Shown here in pieces: positions 35,009-53,547 of a stretch of DNA of 55,990 bases. The DNA lies in the NCBI GenBank assembly GCA_964236185.1, contig CAXSEW010000001.1, positions 1 to 55,990 on the forward strand, written 5' to 3'. A program made the translations under genes and the position numbers. The notes beneath the pieces are model-generated. The model had not been told where the DNA came from. It was given only the letters and a program-made list of their open reading frames with translations, and did not search any database. Source of the DNA: an uncultured Nakamurella sp. (lineage in GTDB: Bacteria > Actinomycetota > Actinomycetes > Mycobacteriales > Nakamurellaceae). How positions within the stretch are numbered: position 1 is the first letter of the stretch; each line of letters starts with the position of its first letter.

Positions 35009-35240
35009 ATGACCGACACATTGCAGTTCAAAGGGGGCGGCACCACCACAACGCTCACAGTCCACGACGGCGGCTGCACCGGAACTTCATTCGTCACCAA
35101 GTCTCGGTCCTTCCCCGACCTCGAGGACACCGTGCTGCATGCCGAACTCGTCAAACTGCTCGAACTACCGGATTCGTACACCCAATATGGTAAACCAGCC
35201 GTCATGTGGTCTGTGACCGTGACGATGGTTCACGATGCTA
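35009..35240 (+). pseudogene. Short ORF running into the IS630 end
   Basis: The ORF reads across the CTAG junction and stops inside the IS. Confidence 0.4.
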
Positions 35241-36302
35241 GTGGTCTGTGATTGAAGTCGTTTTGCGGTTGGCTTTCTTCAGGATTTGGTCGGCGGTTTT
35301 GGTCCAGACGAACGGGTGGGACCGGTCGTTCCAGCCGTTGATGAAGCCGCGGATCTTGCCCACCAGCTCGCTGACGGAGGTGAAGGTGCCGCGGTGTATC
35401 GCCTGCCGTTCGATGATGCCGAACCAGACTTCGACGAGGTTCATCCAGGAAGCGGAGGTCGGGGTGAAGTGAACCTGGATCCGCGGGTTGTCCGCCAGCC
35501 ACGTCTTGACCTCGACCCGCTTATGGGCGGCGTAGTTGTCCATCACCAGGTGCAGCTCCTGGGTCGGGTAGGCCTTCGCGACCTGTTTGAGGAACCGCAG
35601 GAACTCCTGGTGCCGGTGCCGCGGCTGGCACAACCCGGTGACCTGACCGGTCGCGATGTCCAACGCGGCGAACAGGGTGGTGGTGCCGTGCCGGACGTAG
35701 TCGTGGGTTCGTTTCTCCGGCACGAACGGTTGCATCGGCAGCATCGGAGCTGTCCGGTCCAAAGCTTGGATCTGCGACTTCTCGTCCACGCACAGCACTA
35801 TCGCGTTCTCCGGCGGCGCCAGATACAGCCCGACGATGTCGGTGATCTTCGCGACCAGCTCCGGGTCGGTGGAAAACTTGAACGTCTCCGACCGCCACGG
35901 CTGCACCCCAGCCTCCCGCCACGCCTTGGCGACGGTGGAGTTGCTGGTCTTAAGGTGATCGGCCAGCAACCTCGACGACCAGTGAGTGATCCCCAGCTTC
36001 TTCGGCGGCGGTGTCAGGGTGACCGCGATGATCTTCAACCGGTCCACCTCCCGCGGCCGGCCAGACCGCGGTTCATCGACCAACCCGTTGATCCCGTCGG
36101 CGTCATACCGCGCCCGCCACGACGTCACCGTCGGCCGCGACACCCCGACCAACGCGGCGATCGCGGTGTTGCTCACCCCGTCAGCGGCCAACAAAACGAT
36201 CCTTGCCCGCTGCGCCAGACCTGCCCTGATCGAGGAGGACCGAGTCCACTCCGTCAACCGCCGCCGGTCCCCGGACCGCAATGAAAGCGCCGCTACTCGC
36301 AT
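35238..36302 (-). CDS. IS630 transposase
   Basis: RARIVLLAADG HTH, CVDEKSQIQALDR, LVMDNYAAHK and SASWMNLVEVWF (DDE); the stop codon uses the terminal TAG. Confidence 0.95.
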   Translation of the reverse strand: MRVAALSLRSGDRRRLTEWTRSSSIRAGLAQRARIVLLAADGVSNTAIAALVGVSRPTVTSWRARYDADGINGLVDEPRSGRPREVDRLKIIAVTLTPPPKKLGITHWSSRLLADHLKTSNSTVAKAWREAGVQPWRSETFKFSTDPELVAKITDIVGLYLAPPENAIVLCVDEKSQIQALDRTAPMLPMQPFVPEKRTHDYVRHGTTTLFAALDIATGQVTGLCQPRHRHQEFLRFLKQVAKAYPTQELHLVMDNYAAHKRVEVKTWLADNPRIQVHFTPTSASWMNLVEVWFGIIERQAIHRGTFTSVSELVGKIRGFINGWNDRSHPFVWTKTADQILKKANRKTTSITDH

Positions 36303-36354
36303 GCATCATTGTCCCAAACACAACCGCCAAGCTATTTACGACACACCCTACTAG
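35238..36354 (-). mobile_element. IS630-family insertion sequence
   Basis: CTAG at both ends (35238-41 and 36351-54), weak terminal IRs (TAGTGGTCTGTG vs TAGGGTGTGTCG), transposase inside. Confidence 0.85.
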
Positions 36355-36490
36355 TGTCCGTAAACTCGTATCCGCATGCTCGGCGAGGTTATGAGACGTT
36401 GTAATACACGAGTCACGTGACACTTTCACCACCGCAACAACAGTCACTTTGCGCCCAACTGGTGCGACACCTGGATCGGTTACAACGCCG
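36355..36490. other. res-like site remnant 1
   Basis: TGTCCGTAAACTCGTAT, GTTATGAGAC and TGTAATACACGAG share motifs with 39175-39340 and 53268-53450. Confidence 0.5.
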
Positions 36491-36727
36491 ACGGCCTGTC
36501 GATTCCGGGTGAATCCTGACCCGGGTGTTCCTCGAACCCGCCCGGAACCAGTGGGTCCAGATTCAACCGGAGTTGACATGGCCGATGCCGCCGGCGCTCC
36601 TGGTGGAGCCGAATGGCTACTCAACGCTTGCCCGTAAACCGATCCGCGACTGGGCAGCCGTCCCCCCGGGTCGCGATGCATCGTTGATGGGTCCCTTGCT
36701 GTACGGCAAGCGCCGAAGGCAATCGAG

Positions 36728-36949
36728 CTACTTGCTGCGGTGCTGCCGTCGGGAGTACGAGATCCAGGTGATGACACCGCTGATGACGAACACCACGCCC
36801 ACGACCCAGCGGATGGCTTGCACACCTGACGAGCCTGATGTGAAAGGAATCGTGGCGAGCCAAGCGATGCCGACTACGAGGAAGATCGGACCGGTCCATC
36901 GGGCCCACCACTGCTGGAAAGCGGAAGGCCGGACTGGGCTTGAGGTCAC
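36728..36949 (-). CDS. Small two-TM membrane protein
   Basis: Two hydrophobic helices and a basic C-terminus. Confidence 0.55.
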   Translation of the reverse strand: MTSSPVRPSAFQQWWARWTGPIFLVVGIAWLATIPFTSGSSGVQAIRWVVGVVFVISGVITWISYSRRQHRSK

Positions 36950-36973
36950 CGGTGCAGTCTGGACGAGACTTTG

Positions 36974-37429
36974 ATGTACGGCAAGCGCCCGTCGACCACC
37001 CGCAGTTGGCCCCTGGCCTTCGGCTACGTCCGCGTCTCCACCGTCGACCAGGTCGAGAACGGCGCGAGCCTCGACGCACAGCGGATCGCCCTCATCGCCG
37101 AGGTCGACCGCCGCGGCTGGGAGCTCGAGCTTGTCGCCGACGAGGCCTGTCCATCAAGAACATGAACCGGCCCGCATTGCTCGCCGCGCTCACCCGGCTC
37201 GACCGCGGCGACGCCGACGCCCTGATCGCGATCCGGCTCGACCGGATCTCCCGGTCCGTCGCCGACTTCGCTGGCCGGCTCGACCGTGCCGGTCGCAAGG
37301 GTTGGGACTAGTCCTACTGTCGCCCGCGCTGGACCTCGCCGATCCAGCAGGCAGGTTCACCGCCAACGTCCTCGCCTCGGCCGCGCAGTACGAGCGCGAG
37401 CTGATCAGCGCCCACACTCGCGAGGGGAT
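36974..37429 (+). pseudogene. Serine recombinase (resolvase family), frameshifted and 3'-truncated
   Basis: GYVRVSTVDQ (catalytic Ser), SLDAQR, then other frames give NRPAL...IRLDRISRS and AGRFTANVLASAAQYERELISAHTREG; two frameshifts; homology ends at about 37428. Confidence 0.88.
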
Positions 37430-37707
37430 CGTCGATCGGTTCGGGGTTCGCTCGGTGGGACATCCACGCCTGGCAGGCTGGAGGAATTCTAAACACCGGT
37501 CGGAAGGCCGAATACGTCAACAACTCTGATCGGCTGCCCTTCGGTGGAGTAGGCGTACACGACGAGGAAGCCGGTTTGCTGCCCGGCGGCGCGACGGTCC
37601 GCTCGACCCTTGCGAGGGGCATGAGCGTGAAGCAAATACCGGTCGGCGGCTGTTGGGGTGGAACCTGCAGGTGGGCGGGCCACGTATGTAGGGGCGAAGG
37701 GGTGGTC

Positions 37708-38217
37708 ATGGCTGATCGAGATGGTTTCACCGCAGTGGTGCAGGACCGGCTGGTGCCGTGGCGGCGGATGGCATTTCTGATGTGCGGGGACTGGGCTCGG
37801 GCCGAGGACCTGGTGCAGACGGCGCTTCTGCGGATGTACGGCAAGTGGCACCGGATCGACCTGGCCGGTGTCGATGCCTACGCCCGGCGGGTGATCACTC
37901 GGCTGGCCATCGATGAATCCCGCCGCGCCTACCGCCGGTCGGAGGTGTCCGCTGCGGATCTGCCTGACCGCCCGGCCCTCGGCGACGAGGCGACCGCCGG
38001 GCTGGACGTCCGCGCGGCGTTGCAACGACTGTCTGCCTCGCACCGGGCCGTGCTGGTGTTGCGGTTCTACCTGGACCTTTCGATCGCCGACACCGCGGCA
38101 GCGCTGGGTGTCGGCCAGGGGACCGTCAAGTCCCAGACCTCACGTGGCTTGACCGCACTACGTGCCGCGATCGCACTCGACTCGCTTGCCTATCTCTCGA
38201 AGGAGCTCCCGCGATGA
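37708..38217 (+). CDS. ECF sigma factor (SigE-like)
   Basis: GDWARAEDLVQTALLRMY and HRAVLVLRFYLDLSIADTA..LGVGQGTVKSQTSRGL. Confidence 0.92.
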   Translation: MADRDGFTAVVQDRLVPWRRMAFLMCGDWARAEDLVQTALLRMYGKWHRIDLAGVDAYARRVITRLAIDESRRAYRRSEVSAADLPDRPALGDEATAGLDVRAALQRLSASHRAVLVLRFYLDLSIADTAAALGVGQGTVKSQTSRGLTALRAAIALDSLAYLSKELPR

Positions 38218-39128
38218 CCACCAATGAGGACGGCGGTGCCGGAATCGGCGAAGCGCTGCAACAGGCTTTCGGCGATGAACCGCCCTTGATGTTGAACGCC
38301 GGCGCCATCGCCCGGCAGGGCGCCCACGCGCTTCGCCGGCGTCGTGGGATGACCATCGGCGGGGCGGTCCTGGCAGTCGGCGTGCTGACCGCAGGGATCG
38401 CGGTAGGTGTACCTCGCATAGCTGGCACCGTCGGTACTGCCAGCGCGCACTCGGTACCCGGTTGCGGCGCCGTGGTCAGTACCGACGACCCGGCTGTCAC
38501 CGCCTGGCAGAACGGGACCTCCGCGTCTCCGACCGGACCGACGTCGTCGTTCGGCACCGAGGCGACGTCGTCGTCCTCCGACGCCGCAGCGACCGAAGCC
38601 AGCACGACATCTGCTGCAGTGGCAACCGGTCCGACCGACGTCTACGGGCAACCGGTACCGGCCTGGTTGACCAAGTCGAAGGCGACCAACATGGCGACCG
38701 CGTTCGCCGCGTCGATACCGACTGGCGTTCACTTGTCTGCGCCCGCCGCCTCCGCTCGGGTGCCGTTGCCCTTCGCTGCGGGCTCCCACTTGGCAGGTGG
38801 CGGCGTCGTCGTCTCGGCTGGCTCTGCCCGCGCATTCCTCAGCATCGACGTCCAGATGTGGGACAAGGGCGCTCCGCCGTGCACCGCCAACCTGGCTCAC
38901 CGGTACACCAGCGCGGACGGCAGCATCACCGACGTCATCGACGAACCGGGAACCAGTGAAACCGGGCACTACATGCTCGCCGAGTCCTACCGACCCGACG
39001 GAACATTGGTCAACGTCGGTCTCAACAACAGCGGCGGCATCGTGCCTCCGACCGCCAACCTGCCGCTCACCGTTCAGCAGCTCGCAGCAATCGCCGCCGC
39101 ACCCGCACTGGCCATCACCGCCGAGTAA
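38214..39128 (+). CDS. Single-pass membrane protein, probable anti-sigma factor
   Basis: ATGA-coupled to the sigma gene; RRRR then a TM; C-terminal YRPDG...LTVQQLAAIA, similar to 13730-14764. Confidence 0.72.
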   Translation: MTTNEDGGAGIGEALQQAFGDEPPLMLNAGAIARQGAHALRRRRGMTIGGAVLAVGVLTAGIAVGVPRIAGTVGTASAHSVPGCGAVVSTDDPAVTAWQNGTSASPTGPTSSFGTEATSSSSDAAATEASTTSAAVATGPTDVYGQPVPAWLTKSKATNMATAFAASIPTGVHLSAPAASARVPLPFAAGSHLAGGGVVVSAGSARAFLSIDVQMWDKGAPPCTANLAHRYTSADGSITDVIDEPGTSETGHYMLAESYRPDGTLVNVGLNNSGGIVPPTANLPLTVQQLAAIAAAPALAITAE

Positions 39129-39174
39129 GACTGCACTGGTGACGGCCGGAGTCGCCGCCGTTGTGTCTGATTGC

Positions 39175-39340
39175 TCGCGTTCATAGCTACATCCGTAAAG
39201 CAGCCGCACACGGATCATAAAATAGGACAAGCAAACGATGGAGTACGTGTCATTCCCGTTGCCTTGTAACGTAACTCGTGCACGAATGACTGACTACGTT
39301 GCGTTATAAAGTAACGCGTACACGAGTTGCGTTACACCGT
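39175..39340. other. res-like site 2 (AT-rich, nested inverted repeats)
   Basis: IR TGTAACGTAACTCGTGCACG (39265-84) / CGTACACGAGTTGCGTTACA (39317-36), 18/20; inner GCGTTA-TAAAG-TAACGC; CAAGCAAA shared with the 53.3 kb site. Confidence 0.6.
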
Positions 39341-39449
39341 GAAAGCCCCGTGACGCCAGCGGCATGACGCACAGCCGTCCGATAGAAGATCCGGGACCGC
39401 ACACCGCGAAGACTCCATTCAAGTCGACCCGGCCGCGCCCGCGGCTAGC

Positions 39450-39749
39450 TCAGCGGGAGGGGTCCACTCGCGCGTTATGGAGCCGGACTGGGATCACGAA
39501 GGCCACGAACAGCGGGACGATCGCCAGGGGAATCGCCCAGAGACCGACGGAACGCTGCTGAAGGCCGGCGCCTCCGAACACAGCGAGTACGAGCTCTGAG
39601 AAATAGGGCACCGCGATCCGCCAGTCCATGCGAGGCGAGTCGGCCCTTCGGAACGCGACTATTCGGCGATCCACGTTCAGACGATCAGACAGCAAGCCCG
39701 CGACGGCGGCCAGCAGCCAACCGCAGACCATCACCACCCAATCGACCAT
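39450..39749 (-). CDS. Small membrane protein
   Basis: Three hydrophobic segments; lies between the 39379 and 39786 sites. Confidence 0.55.
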   Translation of the reverse strand: MVDWVVMVCGWLLAAVAGLLSDRLNVDRRIVAFRRADSPRMDWRIAVPYFSELVLAVFGGAGLQQRSVGLWAIPLAIVPLFVAFVIPVRLHNARVDPSR

Positions 39750-39839
39750 CAGGCAAAGGCTAGCTCTGCCCGCACAGAACCGTCATCGGTCAGCGATCGC
39801 GTCTGTCGAGTCCCGTGGAGGTGTAGCTGCGCACAGCCA

Positions 39840-40067
39840 CTATGGGCGGCCGCCCTGCTCGCCGACGCGAGGCGTGAGAAGCGTCGTGAGCAATCCAGCC
39901 ATGAGGCAAACCAGGAATGCAACGGACCACCATGTGCCTCGCACCGTGATGGATAGAACGAAGAAGATAACGGTGAGCACCAGGAGGGCAAGAACGAACC
40001 TGCGTCGTGATTGAGACGACCGATCCCAGGCACTGCCAGGCCTAGGCCAACGTCGCGTCTTCCCCAT
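39840..40067 (-). CDS. Small two-TM membrane protein
   Basis: RRRFVLALLVLTVIFFVL...WWSVAFLVCLMAGLL. Confidence 0.5.
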   Translation of the reverse strand: MGKTRRWPRPGSAWDRSSQSRRRFVLALLVLTVIFFVLSITVRGTWWSVAFLVCLMAGLLTTLLTPRVGEQGGRP

Positions 40068-40303
40068 CGCGCGATCCTAAGCCGTGAGACCGCCGCCTCT
40101 TGGCGAAGGCCCTAGGTTCTTGTGTCGGAATCTGCCATGAAGCGGTCGGATGCCCACGCGGCGATGTTCGAAGGCGGAACGGTGACCGGACGGGATCCGT
40201 GACCGGTCTCGAGCGTTTAGGCGCGGATACCGTGCTCCGCGCGCGGACCGGGCCCGTACGCGAAATCGGCACTCGACTAGACCAAACGTGGGATGATACG
40301 AAC

Positions 40304-40657
40304 ATGCGCTTAACCGGCCCCCGACCGCCCCGCCAGCCGATTGATTGGTCGGCGACGCGTGCCGGCGACTGGTGGCCCCGCGTCGCACTAGTGGTCGTCG
40401 CGCTGGGGTTGACAGAACTTCCCAACACCTGGTGGTCATGGGGCCCGGTGATAGCTTGGGCCGCCGCCTGCAGCTTCGTGCCGGCACTCCCTAGAAAGTC
40501 GCTCGCCCCATCACCTGTGCCAGCTGGCCGCGATGAAGGCAACGTCGACGACAGCGTTCACTTAGCAGCGGATGCGACCGATCAGGAGCCGCCACTTTCC
40601 GCTGCGGAGTTCGAAGTCGTTTGGCAGCAAGCCAAGGAGTCTGGCGCACGAATTTAG
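40304..40657 (+). CDS. Small membrane protein
   Basis: Two TMs and an acidic tail; ATG downstream of the 40185 site. Confidence 0.5.
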   Translation: MRLTGPRPPRQPIDWSATRAGDWWPRVALVVVALGLTELPNTWWSWGPVIAWAAACSFVPALPRKSLAPSPVPAGRDEGNVDDSVHLAADATDQEPPLSAAEFEVVWQQAKESGARI

Positions 40658-40754
40658 GTGCGTTTAGGTCAGAAAGGCCTTCGAAGTCTCGCTGCCGTCT
40701 GCGTCGTATCGACCCGGTGCCACTGATCTAAGGGGTCGGTGGTGCCGGGCATGC

Positions 40755-41000
40755 GTGGAACTCGCGGAGGACCAGTACTGGATCACACCTCGGCCACTAG
40801 CCCCCGCAGGACCACTACGGATGGTCCTGCGGTGGCCCGAGCTGGGCATCGAGGAGACCGTCACCGAACTCGACGGCACTACGATCGCCGCCGCCGGCCG
40901 GGTCGCCGACGTTCTCTGGGCGCCAGAACCAGCCCTAGCACCACCTCGCTCACTGGCCCCACCGACCATCGGATGGTTCGCACAAGCCCTCCACCGCTGA
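40755..41000 (+). pseudogene. Probable C-terminal fragment of an actinobacterial hypothetical protein
   Basis: YWITPRPLAPAGPL...WPELGIEETVTELDG...LW resembles the C-terminus of longer proteins; the stop is followed by the 41011 site. Confidence 0.45.
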
Positions 41001-41205
41001 CCCATGATCACCGTTCAAGGATCGGTGTCAGGTTACGGACGGAGGGCCACTGAAGGGCAAGATCGCCGGGGCAAGGCCACCCATGATCACGGACTCGAGC
41101 GCGCCATATGGTCTGGCGAAGAACTCGGCGCTAGCGCCGTCGGGACGGCTGACGGCACCATGACACGAGACGGGAACCGAGCTGGCCTGTGCGCGTCCTC
41201 GGAAG

Positions 41206-41499
41206 GTGATCAACAAGCGCCGGCAGCGGCTGATGTGGCTGACCGGCGCGGCCCTTTCGGCCGGGTCCGGGGTGGTGATCATTGTGTTGGTTATCGTTCA
41301 CGCCCTTCAGGCCGAGTACGCCGAAGGGTTACGCGCCGATGCCACGGGAACCGCCGGTGGCGTCGGTACTGGTGGCGTGCCCTCGAATACTGGGCTGCTC
41401 ATTGGAGCCGCGCTGATCGCCGCAGTGCTCCTGGTTGTCCTGATGGCGCGCGCTTCCGGCTCAGCACGGGGCCGTCGATCAACGGGCCCCGCCAGCTGA
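41206..41499 (+). CDS. Small two-TM membrane protein
   Basis: Two hydrophobic helices with a Gly-rich loop; lies between the 41011 and 41532 sites. Confidence 0.55.
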   Translation: MINKRRQRLMWLTGAALSAGSGVVIIVLVIVHALQAEYAEGLRADATGTAGGVGTGGVPSNTGLLIGAALIAAVLLVVLMARASGSARGRRSTGPAS

Positions 41500-41541
41500 T
41501 CACCCGAGCCTGCAGAAGTACCCAGAACCTCCCGGTTGGCG

Positions 41542-41857
41542 ATCGCCCATCGGCGACCCCGCGGTGGCGCGCAAACCGAGATCGCATACCTATCACGGTG
41601 CTGCATGATTGCCAGCATGCCCGATGACACCCGAGAGCCGGCCAGTCTCCGCGACATGGGATTACGGATGAGGCCTGGGGATCGGTGGCCATTCGAGCCG
41701 CCTGCGCCCGAGCTGGGACCCGATGGCGGCGTAGACGCTCCGCTCGGGCCGAATCCGCCGCCAAGCCTCGCGAAAACGGCAGAACCACCTGACTCTTCGC
41801 CTGACCGGTAGTAGGGGCGGGAAGCCGGTGACCATGCGCGGATTACCGAGTGCCGAT
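41542..41857 (+). repeat. Module copy A (~316 bp) with a small Pro-rich ORF (41617-41811)
   Basis: Inverted homolog of 45716-46030; encodes MPDDTREPASLRDMGLRMRPGDRWPFEPPAPE... Confidence 0.9.
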
Positions 41858-42270
41858 CCCCGACCGGTGGTCGATGGGTATGGAGGAGCGCTGCAGTCAG
41901 GCCCTCGTCCGGGCCGATTGCGTGCTGTCATCGCCTGTCGGTCAAACCCGGTGGGCAACAATTGATCGATCCGCCGATCGTTGATCCGTCGGTTTGCGAC
42001 GATGATAGTCATTGGTGCAAAACGAGCGTCGACTGACGCATCTCGGAGGCCGATCGAACTGCACGGGGACGAGGCTCCACGGCCGCAGGCAGAACGGCTC
42101 GGAGATGCAACCTTTTTATCGAGGTGCCCGTCTGTCGATAGAAGGGAGAATCTTATGATTCGAACAGGTGTTGGTCCGGTCGCTCGATTAACGCCGGGAC
42201 TGATCAGCGCTGCCCTAGCCGGTGGCGTCGCTACGCCGGCCGCCGCCTGATGGTGCGGAAGGGTGCGGTG

Positions 42271-43131
42271 ATGCGTCGCTGGGTGCGGGGTGTGACGGCA
42301 TTCGTCGCCATTTGCGCCTCGGGCTGCGCGTCCCCCGTTGCGGTGTCTACACCGCCGGCGGCGACGGCGTCAGCCTCGGCAAGTGCGCCGGGCGAAGGCT
42401 CCTACGTGGGGGTGCACTGGATAGCGACCCAGGTGTCGATCAACAGTGTCACTCACTCGATCCCGACCGGTATGGCAGTCACCGTCGACTTCTTGCAGTC
42501 CAGGTCCGTTGTCTTCAGCGACGGCGTCAACGCGATCGACGCTCATTGGGCACCGCTGCCCGATGATGCCGTTCGCGTGGAGGACGCCCGCTCCAGCGCT
42601 GTCGGATATGTGGGCCGTGATGCCCAACAGCTCGCCGCTATCCTGGCAATCCAGCAGATCACCGCTCCCTCCCTTGCCGGCGAGTCAGCCGCTGAGATCA
42701 CAGTCACCCGCACTGGCGGCGTTCTCACGCTGGCGGGAAACACGGTGCAGATCTCCTACCGGAACGCCGGACCCACAGCACCTGAAATGACGCGATCCGC
42801 CCCCGCGACCACCAATCCAGCCGGCCCGTCGCCAGACCATGGACCCCTAGCGGCCTCGTCGGCGGCTGGTGACGTAGGAGCCGCGAAGCCCTATGACCTC
42901 CTCACCCACTGTGGAGTGAGGGAAGCTTTGATCAAGAACACCTACTACTTGGCCTCCCCGGTGCTCGACGACGGCAACGGGAACCCGCCACCGGGCTGGG
43001 GCAATCCGTACGACAGCGGCACGATCACCATCAACGCCGATAAGACGGCCGACTTTCGCGACAGCGCAGGGCACCAAGCCCACTTCGTCGTGCGGCCCGG
43101 CGCGAGAACCTGGCTCCGCGCCTGCGCATGA
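42271..43131 (+). CDS. Lipoprotein with a META-like domain
   Basis: Signal peptide with a lipobox-like ASGC; GVHW...DGVNAI; C-terminal LLTHCG...WGNP domain. Confidence 0.65.
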   Translation: MRRWVRGVTAFVAICASGCASPVAVSTPPAATASASASAPGEGSYVGVHWIATQVSINSVTHSIPTGMAVTVDFLQSRSVVFSDGVNAIDAHWAPLPDDAVRVEDARSSAVGYVGRDAQQLAAILAIQQITAPSLAGESAAEITVTRTGGVLTLAGNTVQISYRNAGPTAPEMTRSAPATTNPAGPSPDHGPLAASSAAGDVGAAKPYDLLTHCGVREALIKNTYYLASPVLDDGNGNPPPGWGNPYDSGTITINADKTADFRDSAGHQAHFVVRPGARTWLRACA

Positions 43132-43318
43132 CGGCCTGACTCCGCCCTATGCCTCAACCTTCGTGGCCAGGCCGAGGGGCGCGCCTGTAGTCGTTATCCA
43201 GTCGGTCGGGAGTGAGCTGCGCTGCGCTCGGATCCGTGCTGAACGGCGCAATTCGCTTTGCTTCGTCAGCCCGGAAGCGGATCGCTCTGTGGGCAGGACG
43301 CGACCATAGACTTCCGCG

Positions 43319-43578
43319 GTGGCCACGTTCCTCACTTACAAGCGGTGGCGTCTGCGCGACGGTGTGAATATGCAAACAGTGATCAATATGGTCCGCGATC
43401 GGATCGCCCCTCACTACGAGGTGCTAGATCCGACCGTTCGGCTGGGTCTCGAGCAGATCGACGGCGCTCAGGCGGTGTTGGCCACTCAGCGCTGGCTCAG
43501 TCGCGAACGTCGAGACCGGACGGTAGGGGAGCTACCTTCCAGGCATGGCTTGATGCATACCGTCCGCTCCTTGAATGA
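43319..43578 (+). pseudogene. Small hypothetical gene, probably frameshifted near 43530
   Basis: TFLTYKRWRL...ATQRWLSRERRD continues plausibly as ATFQAWLDAYRPLLE in another frame. Confidence 0.45.
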
Positions 43579-43866
43579 ATCGCCCCGGCTCGAGAAGCAT
43601 CGGCCAACGTCCAGCTACCTCACTACTAAGCAGATCGCGAACCCTATTGGCCCGTATCGATCACAACGGGCGCATCCCACGGGTGCCTGCCGGCTGGTCT
43701 ACGGAGTGTTAAGCCCTCGACAAGCGGCTACTAAAGCTGACTTGGCCAGAGACCGGATCTGCAGTCGATGTGGTCCGTCACGAACCGTATCTACTGCGGC
43801 GTCGGTGGTTCCGGGCGCGAACGTTTAAGAGACAGCTGACCGTCCGAACCACCCGGCTGGGCGTGA

Positions 43867-44217
43867 TCAGTTTGTTGGTCCCCAGGGCTGCGTCCGGAGT
43901 CGACGTTGGCTGCTGCCTTCTGCAAGAACCCAACCGTGGGCACTTAGCGGTAGCTCTTGGTACGTCCATCGGCCAGGGTCGTCCTGACGGAGACGGCGAT
44001 AACGGAACATGTCGTGCGCCAACGTGCGATGCGGCGTCTTTCCCTGCCTCACGTATAGCTTCACCTCAACGCGTTCGCCGTCGGAGGTGAGAACGGGAGC
44101 CCCGAGCCGATCGAGCAGCTGGGCAATTTGAGGCTCCCGCGCATCGGCGTCGGCCAGCAACGTTCGAACCACGGGTCTCACTCCTTTGCTGTAAGAAACC
44201 ACCGAACTCCTCATCAC
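43867..44217 (-). CDS. Hypothetical protein
   Basis: ORF with a plausible composition; no motif recognised. Confidence 0.35.
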   Translation of the reverse strand: MMRSSVVSYSKGVRPVVRTLLADADAREPQIAQLLDRLGAPVLTSDGERVEVKLYVRQGKTPHRTLAHDMFRYRRLRQDDPGRWTYQELPLSAHGWVLAEGSSQRRLRTQPWGPTN

Positions 44218-44333
44218 TCTAAAGGTGGTGCGGCTGCCCGACCAGCGTTGCGTTCCGCCATTTGCGCGACCCAGGCCTACGTCGCGGTGTTCTAGGACGC
44301 CACTGACACCCCTACGGTTCTCGAAGAGCGGAT

Positions 44334-44681
44334 CTATCCGGCCTGCGCGCTTCGAATGCGTCCGTCGTCGCCGTACTCGACGCGCACTCGTGTGGGCGCG
44401 CCGTCCAGAGTTCCCAGGTTCGGCCGTACGGTGCGACCCTGCTCAGCAGCTAACGCCTCCGCCTCCGTGCAAGTCAGTCCGATGTACGGCTCAACCGGCA
44501 ACTGTCGGATGGCCTCGAAGCGGGCGCGTCTGGTCTGCGGGGCTTCTCTTGATGCGATCGACTTGACAGCCGGCATGGGTGAGACGGAGCGACGACCCGC
44601 GTCCCCGACCTTCTCTTGCTCCACCATGGCACCAAGTATGGGAGGTACCCGATAACTGGCATCTTCGGGTAGCCGACTCAA
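44334..44681 (-). CDS. Small protein with a peptidase inhibitor I78-like C-terminus
   Basis: YIGLTCTEAEALA...RTVR...TLDGAPTRVRVEYGDDGRIRSAQAG. Start uncertain. Confidence 0.5.
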   Translation of the reverse strand: MSRLPEDASYRVPPILGAMVEQEKVGDAGRRSVSPMPAVKSIASREAPQTRRARFEAIRQLPVEPYIGLTCTEAEALAAEQGRTVRPNLGTLDGAPTRVRVEYGDDGRIRSAQAG

Positions 44682-45091
44682 ACTGGCGGAGACGCCGTCC
44701 AGAAGCTGACAGCCGACCGGTCAGCGATCGGTAACCGGAACGGATCCGTGTCCGGCGGCGTTGTAGCCCGACCGGGTTGCCAATCCGTGCATCTATCTAA
44801 GGTGACTGTTACTCCCTCCGGCTTGCGCCCGACTGCGTGATAGGTCTTGATCGCTTCTTCGCTGCACTGTTCGGTAACCAGTCAGCCGGCTTAAGGTTGT
44901 TCGAGGCCACGCGCATCGTCGCTGCATCCTCGTAGCGCCCGGATACCGGGTGACCGCCGTTCGCCGGGGCGTTCACGTTCTCATCCGGAGGCTGGACGGC
45001 GCCGGGGTCAAGAAGCTGCAACCGATTCCTCTGCTGCTACGTCCTGGTACGTCACGGCCGGTGAGAGCGGTTCCAAAGATTAGGAGGTCCG

Positions 45092-45511
45092 ATGCGTGGC
45101 CGACCGGTGCAGATCATCAGCGGGCTGGTGTGCCTCTTGATCGTGCCCGGTTGCGGGCGCCAGGTCGCGCCGCCCTCCCCATCGGTCACCAGCCAATCAG
45201 TTGCGAGCCGACCACTTGCCGGCACGCAGTGGCTGCTCGATGCATCAAAGGCCACCCTGTCGATTACTGGCACCCAACTCAGTGCGACCAACGGGTGCCA
45301 AGAACTGGACGCCACGGTGGCCGTGCAGGGCAGCTCGCTGGAGCTCACCGACGTCCGGTTATCGGCCGGCCCGTACTGCCCGCAGGTTGACGTGCCCGGC
45401 CAGACCGTCTTCCAGGTGCTGACCACCGACTCAGTGTCGTGGAACGTGCAGGTCAACCGTTTGACGGTGACCAACGCTCGCGGACTCGCGCTGCACTATC
45501 GGGCCGGCTGA
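45092..45511 (+). CDS. META-domain lipoprotein
   Basis: Lipobox-like VPGC; LAGTQWLL, NGCQ, and a second Cys (YCP). Confidence 0.68.
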   Translation: MRGRPVQIISGLVCLLIVPGCGRQVAPPSPSVTSQSVASRPLAGTQWLLDASKATLSITGTQLSATNGCQELDATVAVQGSSLELTDVRLSAGPYCPQVDVPGQTVFQVLTTDSVSWNVQVNRLTVTNARGLALHYRAG

Positions 45512-45715
45512 TCGACTCGTTCAGCAACGGGCCCGCAAGTTTCCGACGCCAGGTCGCCACCCGCTGCCCGGCCGCTGCAAGATCGGCCCAGCCAGTCTGT
45601 CGTCCCCCGGGGTGAACGCTTCGGGGTCAACGCCGCGGCCGGCAAGCAAGGCGGTGAACTACCGCACACCGCCCTCATACGCGCGGGCGGTGTGCGGGCT
45701 CATGGTGCCCTCACC

Positions 45716-46030
45716 ATCGGCGCTCGGTTATCCGCGAATGGTCACCGGCTTACCCGGCACCAACTACCGGTCAGGCGATCAGTCAGGTGGTTCTGCCGAT
45801 TCCGCAAGGCTTGGCGGCGGGTTCGGTCCGACCGGAGCGTCCACGCCGCCATCGGGTCCCATCTCGGGTGCAGGCGGCTCGAATGGCCACCGATCCCCAG
45901 GTCTCATCCTTAATCCCATGTCGCGGAGACTGGCTGGCTCTGGGGTGTCATCGGACATGCTGGCAATGATGCAGCACCATGACAGGTCACGCGATCCGGG
46001 TTGCGCGCCAGCGGGTCGCCGGTGGGCGAT
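45716..46030 (-). repeat. Module copy B (~315 bp) with a small Pro-rich ORF (ending 45779)
   Basis: Inverted homolog of 41542-41857; encodes MSDDTPEPASLRDMGLRMRPGDRWPFEPPAPE... Confidence 0.9.
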
Positions 46031-46163
46031 CCATGACCGGTGACGCCCGAGGGGTGCAACTTGCCGCCCCATCTTGCTGTTCCGACCGCTGGGCGATGAG
46101 GCTCCAATCGCCGCCTCTCGAAGGACAGTTGTCGGGCCGCCCACTGGGCCTGCACACTGGCCA

Positions 46164-46371
46164 CATGGGAAGAACGCACGAGGTCTCTGGCATAGAGGGC
46201 CTGCCGATCTATCTGGTCTCGGCTGAACAGCCGTGGATCATCAGCGAAGACGACTTCATCGATGGTGTCCCGCTTGGCGACCTCATGAAGCGGCTCACCC
46301 CCGGCGAGCACCTCTACCTCGTCGACTACGCCAGTGACCCCGCCCGCACCAAGCTCACCTGCCTGATCTGA
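46164..46371 (+). CDS. Small hypothetical protein
   Basis: Globular-looking C-terminal part of ORF 45979-46371; lies between the 46019 and 46432 sites. Start uncertain. Confidence 0.45.
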
Positions 46372-46606
46372 GCGGCCGACAACAGCCGGCCGACCCCTGA
46401 GCACGCAGCGACGCTGCTGCTAACGGAACGCCCGAAAGCCGATCGTCTGCCGGTCAGCGTTCCCCATCAGACACACCAGCGCCAGGTCTGACTGAGTCCG
46501 TGGTCGCCCGCCGGCACAAGTTAGACCGGGTCAGGATTCACCCGGAATCGACACGGGTCGTTTCAGATGCGCAGTTCGTACCCCGACTGACATCGGTCAT
46601 GGGTCG

Positions 46607-46873
46607 GTGGCCGAGCTTGACATCCGGTTTCCAAACAGCATGGTGTGGTTTGATCCAGGCGTGATAGGCGATGCATCGGCGCAAGCCACTCCCGAGCCTC
46701 AGCCGCCGGCTCCACTTCCGTGGTGGCGACTGGCTCTGGGTGTTCTTGGAGGAGTGGCCGTTTTCCTGCTCGCGTCGCTTGTGCGAGGCAACTTCAGCTG
46801 GATTAGCCTCGTCGGAGCCATCATTGCGACAGCTGCCGGTATCGCCTATATGGCATGGCGACGTAGGCACTGA
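46607..46873 (+). CDS. Small two-TM membrane protein
   Basis: WWRLALGVLGGVAVFLL...ISLVGAIIATAAGIAYMAWRRRH. Confidence 0.55.
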   Translation: MAELDIRFPNSMVWFDPGVIGDASAQATPEPQPPAPLPWWRLALGVLGGVAVFLLASLVRGNFSWISLVGAIIATAAGIAYMAWRRRH

Positions 46874-47085
46874 GTTCCAGCTCCGTAACCGCGACCCAAG
46901 GAGCGGGGCAGCCCGCAAGGCGAACGCTGATCGGTCGGGTCCGTCAGAGCACTGATGGTGGCGAACAATCCGCTGCTGGTGAACGCTGTGGGATCGGAAC
47001 CGAGCCGTCAGGCCTGACTTGCTGAAACCGGCTTCCGAAGTCGGCGTCAAGCTGGTGAGGGTGGTCGACCATGCTGCGCGACGGC

Positions 47086-47400
47086 TCAGTGGTCGGGTGA
47101 CCGCTTCGGCACTGAAACGACATCCGCGGTAATCCGGACCCGGTCGCCAGCACGGCAACGATGAATCAACGAGGTCGTGGACGATGAGAGAAGCCACAGT
47201 GCGACCGCTAGGGATACCCAGAACAGCCAATCCAGGTGCTCATGGTTGACGAGGTTGACGACGAGAAAAAAGAGCACGAGCACAATGACACCGGCGCTTT
47301 GCGCTGCCGGGGTGAGCTTGAGGTCGCGTCTACGCCCGTTCAACCAGATCTTCATGAGCAGATGATGCGTCATCCGGGGCCTCAGGGGTGCTCGTTTCAT
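47086..47400 (-). CDS. Small two-TM membrane protein
   Basis: Two hydrophobic helices. Confidence 0.45.
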   Translation of the reverse strand: MKRAPLRPRMTHHLLMKIWLNGRRRDLKLTPAAQSAGVIVLVLFFLVVNLVNHEHLDWLFWVSLAVALWLLSSSTTSLIHRCRAGDRVRITADVVSVPKRSPDH

Positions 47401-47543
47401 GGCAGCGGTGCTTCAGCAACGTAGTGAACGTGGCCGTGCCGTCTCGGTGAAGGCCCACATCGCCACCGTCACCGATTGACGATCGGTGACCGGGACCGCA
47501 ACAACTGGGCAGGCCCGCCCTCGCGACAGGTGCTCAGGCGCGC

Positions 47544-47780
47544 TCAGAATGGACTGGCCGCGCCGCCATCGGCGAGACCGCGGCGTACGGATGCCACCCA
47601 ATCTTCCCAACGTGCTGGGTCGGAATGAAGGTACTGCAGGAAGAGATTGAGCGGCTCCGACGGGGTCTGCTCAAGGGACGCGTAGAGGTCCACCATGTAG
47701 AAGGCGGCCCGGAACGCCTCATCGAGCGTCAGTGAATCGGGCAGGTCGTCCGCCACTGTCGGCCTGGGGAGATCGGTCAT
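47544..47780 (-). CDS. Small acidic protein, toxin-immunity-like
   Basis: LTLDEAFRAAFYMVDLY...SDPARWEDWVASV; bracketed by the 47472 and 47841 sites. Confidence 0.6.
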   Translation of the reverse strand: MTDLPRPTVADDLPDSLTLDEAFRAAFYMVDLYASLEQTPSEPLNLFLQYLHSDPARWEDWVASVRRGLADGGAASPF

Positions 47781-47908
47781 GACCTCAGATTGCCACCGCT
47801 AACCGTTCCGCGGGTGATCAAGTTCAACCCGGGCGATGACCCGGTCGGCGATCGGCAACCGGTCGGCAATCGGCTCGCGCCGTGTGGGGCCCGTTGGGTT
47901 GCTGCGCC

Positions 47909-48922
47909 TCAGACGATGTGGTCAGCATCGCGGGTGGGGAAGCGAGCGTTCGCTCCTGCTGTGATGGCCCGGGTTGCGATGAACACGACGAGCGGCGTGA
48001 CTACAAGCAGGGTCCACTTCGACAAGTCGAGATCACCTCGAGGGCCTGACTGCCCCGTGAGGTTGTTACCCAGGTCGCCGGCCAGTCCGTAGGACAGGTA
48101 CTTCGCGGCCACCATGAATGCCGCCAGACCCGCGCCGATCGGCAATACCGCCCGTCCCACAGCGCTTCTGAGTGCCGCAACTCCGGCGGCGAGCGCGAGC
48201 AGCGCAACTACCAGCGACAGCCAGGAGAGGTAACCGGTCGTTCCGGTTGATAGCTGGAGGTGATTGGAAACTGAGACCGCCAGGCCAGCGCAAACTGCGG
48301 TCACCCCGATCGCCGCGGCCCACCACCGCCTCACCTGGGATCGCCCGCGGACGACCCAGGCCGGTGAGGCCAACGCGATTGCTGCGATCACCTGCACGCC
48401 GAACCAGCCCAACGCGTTGGTCACGGTCTGGAAGTTGTGATCGGCGTACTCGACGACCTGAGCGGCCAGGTATGCGGCCACGCCGAGCGCCGCGGGCCAC
48501 CGCGCCCACGACGGACGCCCGAACAGGCACAGCAGGGCCGTCACGCACCACAGCAGCCATGCTGGGATGTCAGCTCCGAACGGCAAGTTTTCCATCCCGA
48601 ACCCGCCGACCTGCGCGTCGATGTACAGGGCGGTGGCAGCGGGGAAAAGCAGCAGCATAGGCAGCACGACGGCGAGTAGTCCCATCGCGTCCCGCGCCGC
48701 CGCAGGCGCCGGGGACATCATCCGCCACGCCCACGTGCGGACGCTGAACCGCAGCAGCGCAACAGATTCTGCCGGCGATGGGCGACGCTGTCCCGGATCG
48801 GCCCGTTCCATTAGTACGTCCACCAGCTCCCGCCCCCGGGACCGCCGGTAGCTCGGCGGGAACAGCCACAACAACCGGCTGTAGGACCGCTCCAACCGCG
48901 CGTGTGGATCGACGGTGCTCAT
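47909..48922 (-). CDS. Multi-TM membrane protein (PadR partner)
   Basis: LERSYSRLLWLFPPSYRRSRGRELVDVL N-terminus typical of PadR-linked membrane proteins; many TMs. Confidence 0.8.
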   Translation of the reverse strand: MSTVDPHARLERSYSRLLWLFPPSYRRSRGRELVDVLMERADPGQRRPSPAESVALLRFSVRTWAWRMMSPAPAAARDAMGLLAVVLPMLLLFPAATALYIDAQVGGFGMENLPFGADIPAWLLWCVTALLCLFGRPSWARWPAALGVAAYLAAQVVEYADHNFQTVTNALGWFGVQVIAAIALASPAWVVRGRSQVRRWWAAAIGVTAVCAGLAVSVSNHLQLSTGTTGYLSWLSLVVALLALAAGVAALRSAVGRAVLPIGAGLAAFMVAAKYLSYGLAGDLGNNLTGQSGPRGDLDLSKWTLLVVTPLVVFIATRAITAGANARFPTRDADHIV

Positions 48923-49254
48923 GCCAGCAGTCCCTTCCCCGTAGCCAGCCGCGACAGTGCCAGCTCGGCCTGCCGGGCGGAACGCTGTGCTTCCTGGGCC
49001 AGCCGGGACGCGCCGGCACTGGAGAGTCGGTAGTACCGACGCAGCCGCGAATCCACCACTTCTTCGTGGTCGAACTCGATCAGGCCCTCCCCGGCCAACC
49101 GGTCCAACGCCCCGTACAGCGTCCCCACCCGCAGCACCACCGCCCCATCGGACTGGGCCAGCACATCCTTGATGATCCCGTACCCGTGCCGCGGTTCACC
49201 GGCCAGCGCACTCAAGATCAGAAACGACGCCTCGCGCAACCTAACCTCTGCCAT
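48919..49254 (-). CDS. PadR-family transcriptional regulator
   Basis: FLILSAL..EPRHGYGII, GTLYGALDRL, RRYYRLS. Confidence 0.92.
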   Translation of the reverse strand: MAEVRLREASFLILSALAGEPRHGYGIIKDVLAQSDGAVVLRVGTLYGALDRLAGEGLIEFDHEEVVDSRLRRYYRLSSAGASRLAQEAQRSARQAELALSRLATGKGLLA

Positions 49255-49490
49255 CGCAGCACCATATATCGAGTAGCGGAGTATGCCAAGAGGTGGCACT
49301 GCGGCTGCTCGACGAATCGACGACCGGTCAACGGTCGGCAACCGGTCGGCATTACTTGCGCTGCGGTGTTGCCGGCCGGAGACCGGTTGAGGTGTGGAGA
49401 TGCTGTCGTGGAACCACGATGGCGCCGGTCAGTGCTGCGACCTTCCAGGGTGTTGAGGCCCTCTAGCCCGCCGTGGGTTAACGTCCGGCG

Positions 49491-50438
49491 GTGATGCATC
49501 GACAACGGGTGGGCCTGATTGTCATCTGCTCGGCTGTGCTGCTGGTTGCGGTGATTACGGGTTTGCGCCCGGACCGCGTGGCCGGTGTCGCTCAGGCCAC
49601 TGCGGTCGCGGGGCCCCCGGCAGTGGGTGAGTGCGTGGTGGACCCCCTGCCGAAGCCGCAGTTGGGTGTTACTGCTCCAGTCCTGGCTAACTCAGGTGGC
49701 ACCGTCCCGGTGTATCCGGCGCAGCAGATCCAGCCGTGCACCGGAGCCCGCTACGGCGAGATCACCGCTGTCATCGCCGCACCAAAGCCCACCGTGGTCA
49801 CGGGCGACGACACCGACGGCCGATTCTTAGACGACCCCAACGAAGGCAGCTGCTCCGAACCCGCGCAGCGGTATCTGGGTACGACAACGGAGCCGACCCA
49901 AAGTTTTTGGCAGGGCCGGATACTGCAGTTCAGCGTTGCGTTGTCCAGACCCTCGACACGTCAGGAGGCGGCCGGACAGCGGTGGGCGGCGTGCATCGTG
50001 ACCCTGCCGGCTTCCGACCAGGCGTCCGCTCCTCCGCGGTATGGCAGTTCTTTGCGCGATGCAGTGCACACCGGCCGGTACCGCGACCAACTCGGCGACT
50101 GCATATCAAACTTTGACTGGGACGGCGGACTGATCAGCTGCACCCAGCTCCACCTACTCGAAGTGATGGGCTGGGGTGACAGCGGCGATCATCCGGTCAC
50201 CGGCGCGCAGTTGGAGTCGAGCTGCCAGCAGCTGGTCCGCCAACTGACCGCCATGCCCGATCCGACCGCCGGCGGCGCGCTGTCCATCCAGATCGGAGTC
50301 AAGGAAGGGAACCGCATCGCTATCCGCCCCTCGCAGGTGCCGGCCCACTCGGCTGTTTCGTGCGGCGTCACTACCGCCAACCGCGAACTTCGCGGCAGCC
50401 TGCTGGGACTGGGCCGACAGCCCATCCCCTGGGCGTAG
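49491..50438 (+). CDS. Secreted Cys-rich septum-formation-family-like protein
   Basis: Signal/TM, PAVGEC, PCTGARYGEI, AGQRWAAC, SCTQLHLLEV; lies between the 49324 and 50488 sites. Confidence 0.7.
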   Translation: MMHRQRVGLIVICSAVLLVAVITGLRPDRVAGVAQATAVAGPPAVGECVVDPLPKPQLGVTAPVLANSGGTVPVYPAQQIQPCTGARYGEITAVIAAPKPTVVTGDDTDGRFLDDPNEGSCSEPAQRYLGTTTEPTQSFWQGRILQFSVALSRPSTRQEAAGQRWAACIVTLPASDQASAPPRYGSSLRDAVHTGRYRDQLGDCISNFDWDGGLISCTQLHLLEVMGWGDSGDHPVTGAQLESSCQQLVRQLTAMPDPTAGGALSIQIGVKEGNRIAIRPSQVPAHSAVSCGVTTANRELRGSLLGLGRQPIPWA

Positions 50439-50713
50439 GCGTCGCATATCGCTGCCGTGGGTGTCGGTGTCGTCCAGATGCTGCATGCCGAAAGCCGATC
50501 GCCGACCGGTCAGCGTCCGCTGATCCATCGGTGACCGGCTGCTGATCCCAGAACTAGAGTTCTGGACTGCCGAACTCCGGTCGCCCTCGCCACCGGCTCA
50601 GCGACGACCACGAGGCGGGAGGTGGCTTGCGACGGGACTCGACCTTACCTAGCCGCGGCCGGCGAGAAATCTGGAAGGCGACATCGCAGCTGCGCCAGGA
50701 GGCACGTGAACGT

Positions 50714-50947: not shown

Positions 50948-51258
50948 TTATTGACGCATCGCGAGACGGCCTGAGTTCCAGGCCACTCTGGCACACCTAA
51001 ACTTTCTGCTCTGCGGTGGCGCCCTGTAGACGTCGTCCGCATGCGGGGCTGCCCGTCTCAACTCCGGTTGAATCTGGACCCACTGGTTCCGGAAAACCCG
51101 GGTCAGCCTTCACCCGGAATCGACAGCCCGCGAGAGAAACGGGGTCTTAGCCTGGAGCCGATAGACCAACGACAGCCGGTAACGCCGGGACCCGCCAGGG
51201 TCGCAACTTGCACGCGCGTCCCACAGCACCCGTCCGGTGACGCATCCCGCAGAGGTAC

Positions 51259-53123: not shown

Positions 53124-53267
53124 GTACCACCTACGGGACGACTGCGCTCGACCTTCACGTGGTGCAGGCACTACCCGGTGCCTGGAGCCCATCCCTCGGG
53201 CTGCGCCGGCTTCCGTAGTCCTCAAGAGGACCGGCGCGCTCTTGAGCGACTCTGTCTACGGTCCGAT

Positions 53268-53450: not shown

Positions 53451-53547
53451 AGCGGTCAGGACAGGTTACGGACGGGTCTCGACCCGCGACCAACACCCGG
53501 AAGCAGACGATGACGCCCAGACCGCCGCTGACCGTGAGCGGGTGTTA

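What the first reader, a model, noticed from the sequence alone, without database searches (positions are those of the whole stretch)
41532..46040. Inverted duplicate module whose homology ends at the AT core of the sites on both sides
Seen: 41542-41857 and the reverse complement of 45716-46030 are diverged copies of one ~315-bp unit (small Pro-rich ORF plus flanks). Left end: A ccggttggc|GATCGCCCA vs B ccggtcatg|GATCGCCCA. Right end: A CCGAGTGCCGAT|ccccgaccgg vs B CCGAGCGCCGAT|ggtgagggca. The only overlap common to both breakpoints is (G)AT. Inference: the unit moved as a cassette by site-specific crossover at AT, and copy B's right junction is with a non-canonical partner (half-site). This is the strongest internal evidence for the cassette system.
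Basis: partly seen in the sequence, partly recalled or inferred. Interest (0 to 1): 0.85.

Follow-up and report, generated by a model that had tools for sequence, protein, structure and literature searches.

The report
Resolvase-shuffled gene modules in actinobacteria
The two copies are gene modules cut out exactly at short palindromic DNA sites that recur in arrays across many actinobacteria, and the modules are likely shuffled and traded by a small serine recombinase, which would be a gene-swapping system distinct from integrons and dif modules.

Summary
Confirmed. 41542-41857 and the reverse complement of 45716-46030 are 89% identical, and homology stops at GAT on both sides. Three of the four ends are centres of a 22-bp palindromic site, CCGGT-YRSC-GATC-GSYR-ACCGG. 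B's right end has a random-looking outer half. Fourteen such sites punctuate 36-51 kb and none lie elsewhere in the window. Related sites form arrays in other members of the genus and in many Actinomycetota, where the same site-bounded modules have different neighbours. Homology breaks just outside the central two bases, and AT-core and TT-core sites almost never mix: the signature of a serine recombinase. A 195-aa resolvase/invertase-family gene lies inside its own AT-to-TT module; 11 copies of one such module have 11 different flanks. It has Leu at the E124 position in 80 of 80 copies. The enzyme link is untested, some arrays lack the gene, and no intact copy is shown in this 80%-complete assembly. 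The system works like Acinetobacter dif modules but fails that family's tests. Ten literature searches found no description.

The parts
41542..41857 (+). Copy A: module bounded by two canonical AT-core sites
41617..41811 (+). 64-aa Pro-rich ORF of copy A; no Pfam, Atlas or family hit; one 77% homologue P0001
41532..41553 (.). Left site of A, CCGGT TGGC GATC GCCC ATCGG, central AT at 41542-41543
41846..41867 (.). Right site of A, CCGAG TGCC GATC CCCG ACCGG, central AT at 41856-41857
45716..46030 (-). Copy B, 89% identical to A, inverted
45779..45958 (-). ORF of copy B, 59 aa, TGA at codon 60
46019..46040 (.). Left site of B, CCGGT GGGC GATC CATG ACCGG, central AT at 46029-46030
45706..45727 (.). 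B right junction: inner half weak (1.2), outer half non-canonical (-10.4), central AT at 45716-45717
45662..45697 (.). 13-bp-stem hairpin between the convergent META gene and B ORF (terminator-like; inference)
44727..46030 (.). Fused module (META-domain gene + copy B) found as one near-identical unit with other neighbours in run X2
   Evidence: table 8 records 9 and 11
45092..45511 (+). META-domain gene (PF03724)
44717..44738 (.). Perfect AT-core site CCGGT CAGC GATC GGTA ACCGG
36632..50540 (.). Whole array: AT-core sites with A at 36642, 37428, 41021, 41542, 41856, 43281, 44727, 46029, 46442, 47482, 47851, 50498; AA/TT-core sites at 40178, 46460, 46923, 47806; a GGTC-core site at 49334
46432..46471 (.). 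18-bp tandem pair, GATC core then GTTC core (minimal AT-to-TT module)
46029..46443 (+). Site-to-site module also found on a separate contig in run X2 (15 differences) and partly on own contig C221
47851..49335 (-). PadR + membrane-protein module, 87% identical to a stretch of the array in L034
36983..37439 (+). Broken resolvase of an unrelated, E124-bearing type, cut at the AT site 37428; its intact relative L038 has a cryptic site (3.8+5.8) at the same place

Best explanation
A and B are two members of one gene-module family in an array of modules separated by 22-28-bp palindromic sites, and a small serine recombinase of the resolvase/invertase family likely cuts and rejoins these sites at their central two bases. 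Shown: the sites, their clustering, modules ending at site centres, the same modules with different neighbours in other genomes, a 2-bp conserved overlap, two site classes (AT, and TT/AA) that almost never mix, and a 195-aa resolvase gene enclosed in its own AT-to-TT module. Inferred: AT reads the same on both strands, so an AT-to-AT module such as A can be excised as a circle, inverted, or inserted either way round at any AT site, which explains the opposite orientations of A and B. A B-type circle once recombined with a poor, secondary AT site beside the terminator of the META module. That junction is hard to reuse, so B became fused to that module and now travels with it. AT-to-TT modules, the enzyme's own included, cannot excise alone and would move by two matched crossovers (cointegration at one core class, resolution at the other). 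The enzyme lacks E124 and has no accessory res motif upstream, and is predicted to act on isolated crossover sites. The array in this window is probably orphaned or served in trans.
For: Sites: 14 sites at score >=7 in 36-51 kb, 0 in the other 41 kb; 19 of 60 other genus genomes, control 0. Shuffling: run X2 holds window modules in another order; 20 end-to-end module families among 504 inter-site segments; 18 of 20 keep the same core pair; 14 of 20 differ in both flanks. 2-bp overlap: 103 AT-anchored pairs, not independent: identity 0.85-0.98 from -16 to +1, 0.76 at +2, 0.47 at +3, 0.29-0.45 at +4 to +8, as expected for unrelated half-sites; of 227 junction members kept, 10 deviate in the central 2 nt and 31 at +/-2; 0 of 42 TT-family members deviate centrally. 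Geometry: Tn3 site I is 28 bp with a central AT (PMC4499144, passages), and the consensus half agrees with it at positions 1, 7, 9, 11 and partly 13 from the centre (my comparison). Enzyme: PF00239+HTH_7; best PDB hits Gin and gamma-delta resolvase; catalytic R,S,D,R,R in 79 of 80 and Leu at the E124 position in 80 of 80; 318 AT sites against 24 expected in the 78 loci around it; untrained TT and AA cores enriched 98 vs 9 and 60 vs 9 (in a set of those loci plus genus arrays); TT site downstream in 55 of 80 copies, AT in 3; G011, with no hit in the pattern scan, had 7 sites beside its copy; in a second genus 9 of 51 genomes with the gene averaged 2.7 strict sites against 1.1 in 42 without (p=0.003, kin not independent).
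Against: No experiment. The resolvase gene is itself cargo, so nearness to sites is expected of any passenger. G022 (99% complete) has arrays of 8-9 sites (L044, L045) but no hit to this protein at E<=1e-30 and only one, long resolvase-domain frame. L153 and L157 hold 5 and 7 sites with no resolvase within 20 kb. The own genome shows only sister-clade copies: C330 and C311 broken, C416 cut by its contig end. No empty-site or clean replacement pair was found among 1872 site flanks. 31 of 258 junction members were dropped before the count because their core differed by more than one base, and several families are 18- or 28/29-bp tandem repeats, so the counts are not independent events. Mismatched cores do occur (GATC/GGTC in L034/L024; GATC/GAAC in L109). 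The AT profile was trained on the same 78 loci it scores. Wild-type Tn3 resolvase needs accessory sites, and E124Q alone does not activate it (PMC2602789, Table 1 passage). All E124-less sister-clade proteins share that loss, yet their loci hold fewer sites (1.1 vs 3.4 per 10 kb).
Confidence: 0.7

Rival explanations
1. The modules and the 2-bp crossover are real, but another enzyme acts in trans (the sister-clade resolvases, a large serine recombinase, or an IS110/IS607-type recombinase), and the 195-aa resolvase is only a successful passenger.
For: Arrays without the gene (G022, L153, L157). Sister-clade genes also have a GAAC-core site about 120-133 nt upstream in 5 loci, and the own genome has three of them. 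G022 and G034 each have one long resolvase-domain frame.
Against: No other recombinase family recurred in 3 or more site-anchored loci. Tyrosine-recombinase probes hit 5 loci in the L013-L149 set and 3 of 27 in the second set. An orphan array can hold a truncated remnant of the gene (L156). Site size and symmetry fit a small-recombinase dimer.
Confidence: 0.17
2. A tyrosine recombinase (XerCD-like as in dif modules, or IntI-like on folded single strands) does the exchange.
For: Same module logic and toxin-antitoxin cargo as dif modules (PMC13141974, passages). GTT/AAC triplets occur in the TT-class cores, as at integron crossovers (recalled).
Against: dif-module partners share a 6-bp spacer, whereas here positions +2 and +3 vary with the half-site. 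The commonest core is GATC. No integrase gene sits beside the array (no PF00589 hit on C1). No Rfam match in 36-54 kb; no long attC-like palindromes among the longest inverted repeats listed.
Confidence: 0.04
3. No dedicated system: short palindromes (repressor operators or HIP1-like repeats) seed homologous or illegitimate recombination, and the GAT ends are microhomology.
For: Cores often read GCGATCGG or CCGATCGC. Genome-wide the crude 4/4-spaced pattern is only 27 against 2-26 for other spacings.
Against: Breaks fall at one position of the site in dozens of junction families, partners are unrelated beyond the consensus, cores are matched, and 11 copies of one module have 11 different left and right flanks.
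Confidence: 0.05
4. The 315-bp unit is a MITE or other non-autonomous transposon that prefers these sites.
For: Small size, two dispersed copies, ORF of no known family with weak purifying signal (8 syn, 7 non-syn).
Against: No terminal inverted repeats beyond the half-sites and no target duplication beyond the shared core. Only 2 copies in the genome and none in 76 other family genomes. Many unrelated genes are bounded in the same way.
Confidence: 0.04

Closest known systems
Acinetobacter dif (pdif) modules, XerCD
   Same: Arrays of one- or two-gene modules between crossover sites; exchange needs matching overlap sequence; toxin-antitoxin and resistance cargo; fusion modules; proposed movement by cointegration and resolution (PMC13141974, passages).
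   Different: Overlap is 2 bp, not 6; the site is a symmetric palindrome for one protein, not XerC/XerD halves; the likely enzyme is a serine recombinase carried in a module, not host XerCD; Actinomycetota, mostly seen on large contigs.
Integrons (IntI, attI, attC)
   Same: Arrays of small, promoter-poor cargo genes of mixed origin, including toxin-antitoxin pairs, AbiV and an arr gene; secondary-site insertions. Integron features are recalled.
   Different: No IntI, no attC hairpins, modules in both orientations, no fixed platform: sites lie on both sides of the recombinase gene.
Tn3/gamma-delta resolvase res site I, and Tn3 TA-resolvase modules
   Same: Protein family, catalytic residues, 28-bp geometry with central AT; TA pairs next to a resolvase (PMC7157771, abstract and section list only).
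   Different: Many isolated crossover sites instead of one 114-bp three-site res per element; no accessory motif upstream of the cassette clade (0 of 80 for the motifs tested); no Tn3 transposase among the 28 commonest neighbouring families; Leu at E124.
Hin/Gin/Cin invertases and the p15B Min multiple-inversion system
   Same: Best structural relative is Gin; 26-bp sites with a central dinucleotide that governs partner choice (PMC4134206, table passage).
   Different: Those systems invert fixed segments of one locus (Min's six sites are recalled); here whole genes move between arrays and genomes.

Membership tests
dif (pdif) modules | 28-bp site of XerC and XerD arms around a 6-bp spacer that must match between partners | tested here: not met
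   Only the central 2 nt are shared between partners; +2 and +3 vary; consensus is a symmetric palindrome
dif (pdif) modules | Modules bounded by sites recur with different neighbours | tested here: met
dif (pdif) modules | Catalysis by host XerCD | not testable with these tools
   No assay; overlap length argues against
Integron | IntI tyrosine recombinase beside the array | tested here: not met
   No PF00589 hit on C1; no tyrosine recombinase family recurrent in arrays
Integron | attC sites with long folded palindromes and uniform cassette orientation | tested here: not met
   Sites are 22-28 bp; genes lie on both strands; no dedicated attC model was run
Tn3-family res system | Small serine recombinase with catalytic R,S,D,R,R and C-terminal HTH | tested here: met
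   (in relatives; no intact copy shown in this assembly)
Tn3-family res system | Site I with 2-bp central overlap | tested here: met
   (by sequence comparison only)
Tn3-family res system | Single res with accessory sites II and III, inside a Tn3 transposon | tested here: not met
   Many dispersed sites; tested accessory motifs in 0 of 80; no Tn3 transposase among common neighbours. 18- and 28/29-bp tandem sites could be accessory in a way not tested
Hin/Gin/Min invertase systems | Sites inside one locus, inversion only | tested here: not met
   Same modules found in different loci and genomes
Hin/Gin/Min invertase systems | Need for an enhancer and Fis-like cofactor | not testable with these tools
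   No assay
MITE / IS | Terminal inverted repeats, target duplication, many copies | tested here: not met

The most novel reading that the evidence does not exclude
A third class of bacterial gene-cassette system beside integrons and dif modules: a naturally accessory-independent small serine recombinase, travelling as one of its own modules, builds and trades arrays across Actinomycetota, using two orthogonal 2-bp address classes (AT and TT) so that single genes can be swapped by natural recombinase-mediated cassette exchange.
Probability: 0.55. Interest if true: 0.92.

Novelty: categorically new. Interest (0 to 1): 0.83.

Why it matters
If true, Actinomycetota have an overlooked route for collecting and exchanging single genes. 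Cargo seen includes toxin-antitoxin pairs, an AbiV defence gene, sigma factors, transporters and a rifampin ADP-ribosyltransferase gene. The site profile gives a way to mine such cargo, as attC sites do for integrons. It would also be a natural small serine recombinase that works on bare crossover sites and between molecules, something known from engineered resolvase mutants (PMC2602789). That makes the long-standing question of what keeps resolvases switched off directly testable, and offers a compact 195-aa, two-address recombinase for high-GC hosts.

Tried and rejected
Third copy of the ORF: not found in 60 relatives by DNA (two 22-24-nt hits were chance), nor in 76 family genomes by protein. 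The metagenome scan gave 8 weak hits (18-47 residues matched), taken as unrelated. Run X2 holds only a B-type copy with B's own right junction. P0001's contig could not be fetched with the tools open. ORF function: no Pfam, no Atlas hit; left unexplained. Rfam: 0 matches in 36-54 kb. No RNA holder listed. Empty-site or replacement search: none among 1872 site flanks. The crude pattern is weakly enriched genome-wide (27 vs 2-26) and was replaced by profiles. A strict pattern found 2 sites in 5 genomes and was too tight. The 'E124-type' control loci include two fetched because of a site hit, so that control is not clean. The tree is the quick version only: the cassette clade of 84 rows has 98% SH-aLRT; hits with stops or under about 185 aa were left out (96 rows built). 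I considered a top-strand-only model in which AT-to-TT modules insert at single AT sites with a mismatch, and set it aside because GAAC-anchored families keep GAAC in 4 of 5; numbers are small. The broken resolvases at 37.0 and 53.5 kb of the window are of other types and were rejected as the enzyme. Earlier-findings look-ups gave nothing relevant. No structure or complex prediction was run. Literature: 10 searches of open-licence PMC and bioRxiv; subscription journals are not covered and no supplements were opened, so a prior description cannot be excluded.
Full report
Observation. The alignment with 200-nt flanks shows one block of homology between 41542-41857 and the reverse complement of 45716-46030: 283 identities in 319 columns, falling to 32% and 22% outside. 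The unit holds a 64-aa Pro-rich ORF (41617-41811); copy B stops at codon 60. It has no Pfam or Atlas match and one homologue, P0001, 77% identical. The unit occurs twice in the genome and was not found in 76 other genomes of the family.

The sites. Three of the four ends are centres of a palindrome, CCGGT-YRSC-GATC-GSYR-ACCGG. The window has 8 matches at up to 3 mismatches, all between 41.5 and 50.5 kb, against 0.01 expected; I derived the pattern partly from these sites. Independently, 19 of 60 other genomes of the genus match it and the reversed control never does. The broader half-site profile finds 14 sites in 36-51 kb and none in the rest of the window. B's right junction has an inner half of 1.2 and an outer half of -10.4, which is ordinary for a random AT. 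With A and B only 11% apart, use of a secondary site is more likely than decay of a good site (inference). A second such case sits at the array's left edge: an unrelated resolvase gene is cut at the AT site 37428, its intact relative L038 has a cryptic site at that very place, and the missing C-terminal part was not found in the assembly. The genus is most likely Nakamurella: one search names it for the record identical to a same-genus locus.

Modules move. Segments shared between arrays of different genomes end at site centres. Among 504 inter-site segments, 20 families match end to end; 18 keep the same pair of cores and 14 differ in both flanks. Of 379 distinct ends of shared segments of any kind, 104 lie within 25 nt of a site against 9 of 379 random positions; the rest include IS elements and ordinary genes. 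In run X2, from another study, 44716-45707 and 45680-46041 lie on two overlapping contigs with 1 and 3 differences, and other sequence follows beyond both sites; 46034-46444 is on a third contig. So B now travels fused to the META-domain gene, and its right junction is older than its present left neighbour (inference). These are contigs, not reads. No clean empty-site or replacement pair was found.

Where the break falls. Anchoring only on the shared flank, identity stays at 0.85-0.98 up to position +1, is 0.76 at +2 and 0.47 at +3, then follows the level expected of unrelated half-sites (103 AT-anchored pairs, not independent). In 76 junction families (258 members; 31 dropped because the core differed by more than one base), 10 of 227 deviate in the central two bases and 31 at +/-2, and the +/-2 base travels with its half-site. 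Several families are short tandem repeats. A second core class exists: GTTC and GAAC are enriched 98 vs 9 and 60 vs 9 although the profile was not trained on them. TT families kept TT in 42 of 42 members and AA families AA in 9 of 10; AT families held one GTTC and one GAAC among 162. A 2-bp overlap that must match is how serine recombinases work (established knowledge). Tn3 site I is 28 bp with a central AT (PMC4499144, passages read), and our half-site agrees with it at positions 1, 7, 9, 11 and partly 13. A 6-bp Xer-type spacer is excluded.

The likely enzyme. A 195-aa PF00239+HTH_7 protein recurs in the arrays of G026, G029, G031 and G069. G011, which the pattern scan had missed, showed 7 sites beside its copy. 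The 78 best loci of its relatives (of 383 confirmed) come from many actinobacterial families and hold 318 AT sites against 24 expected (trained on the same loci). Density peaks in the first kilobase upstream but is raised on both sides. The gene follows an AT site at 100-133 nt, or follows a site plus a small gene pair; one such pair has a Phd antitoxin, and the other toxin-antitoxin labels are recalled. It ends at a TT site in 55 of 80 copies, at AT in 3, with none scored in 22. One 1.4-kb version has 11 copies with 11 different left and 11 different right flanks. Catalytic residues are intact in 79 of 80, and the E124 position is Leu in 80 of 80. E124Q helps Tn3 resolvase work without accessory sites only in combination with other changes (PMC2602789, passages and Table 1), so this is a hint. 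In a second genus, 9 of 51 genomes carry the gene and average 2.7 strict sites against 1.1.

Against. The gene is cargo, so proximity is expected of any passenger. G022 (99% complete) has arrays but no such gene, and L153 and L157 have none within 20 kb, although L156 has a remnant. This 80%-complete assembly shows only sister-clade copies, two broken and one cut off. The sister clade also lacks E124 and often has a GAAC site upstream, but has fewer sites nearby (1.1 vs 3.4 per 10 kb; genome background 0.33). Nothing was assayed.

Mechanism (inferred). A dimer binds each palindrome, and two sites with the same central pair exchange. AT is symmetric, so AT-to-AT modules such as A can be lost, inverted or inserted either way round. 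AT-to-TT modules cannot excise alone and would move by cointegration at one class and resolution at the other, the route proposed for single dif modules (PMC13141974, passages). The 18-bp tandems (39 seen) and 28/29-bp tandems (30 seen; 11 in a row in L158) look like empty modules; an accessory role is not excluded. Cargo named in 66 of 201 module proteins scanned includes YefM/YoeB, Phd, AbiV, ECF sigma factors, an MFS transporter and an arr gene between TT and AT sites in L044; most had no match at E<=1e-12.

Comparison and verdict. It works like dif modules and resembles integrons in cargo, but fails the defining tests of both. It uses what looks like resolvase site I without the rest of res or a transposon. 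I read passages of PMC4499144, PMC2602789, PMC13141974 and PMC4134206, and the abstract and section list of PMC7157771; other papers were seen as search listings only; integron and Min details are recalled. Ten searches of open-licence literature found no description; subscription papers and supplements were not seen. The module system itself I hold at about 0.9, the resolvase as its enzyme at 0.7. I rate it categorically new as an element class, while its logic is that of dif modules. Interest 0.83.

Noticed in passing
window 36497-36578, 51048-51125, half at 46526-46553: About 80-bp element with TGTC...GACA inverted ends, in two opposite copies plus a half; looks like an IS21-type miniature element (label recalled).
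   Followed up: no
window 36354-36450, 39180-39340, 53263-53470: AT-rich res-like tracts with TGTCYNTAA-type half-sites beside broken resolvases at 36983-37439 and 53464-54000; related tracts on C484 and C221 and in runs X2, X3, X5.
   Followed up: partly
window 35238-36302 (-) and 51350-53083 (-): Transposases bracket the array: DDE_3 type (IS630-like) and HTH_38+rve type (IS30-like); family names recalled, Pfam.
   Followed up: no
window 1799-30128: Left of the array lie a T2SSE ATPase, LysM/BTAD protein, N6-N4 methylase with ResIII helicase, AAA ATPase with multi-HTH protein and LigD: a likely integrated element. No module sites there.
   Followed up: no
L158:11039-11329: Eleven perfect 29-bp tandem copies of an AT site directly upstream of a toxin-antitoxin plus resolvase module; similar stacks in L165, L147, L148. 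Could be mistaken for a CRISPR-like or VNTR array.
   Followed up: partly
L044:7516-7971: Rifampin ADP-ribosyltransferase (arr) gene between a TT site (7319) and an AT site (8146) in a same-genus genome.
   Followed up: partly
L072-L149, about 100 nt upstream of the resolvase start: Conserved GC-rich leader with a hairpin and no evident promoter before the resolvase gene; possible RNA-level control.
   Followed up: no
G000 C330, C311, C416; L055, L058, L059, L062, L069: Sister-clade resolvases with a TAAGACC-type motif and often a GAAC-core site 120-133 nt upstream; may be the res-bearing ancestor of the module enzyme.
   Followed up: partly
G000 C305, C475, C498: Further pieces of array in the same genome (4-5 sites each), sharing module ends with the window.
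   Followed up: partly
L152 (NC_008697.1) 9874-10701: The resolvase module with AT and TT sites occurs on a conjugative Nocardioides plasmid, where the table lists no gene over it.
   Followed up: partly
L079: The same resolvase module on a contig labelled Alphaproteobacteria; may be misbinning.
   Followed up: no
window 37656-39124: ECF sigma factor plus partner gene; found at 94% in run X2 next to the META+B module, starting at a GAAC.
   Followed up: partly
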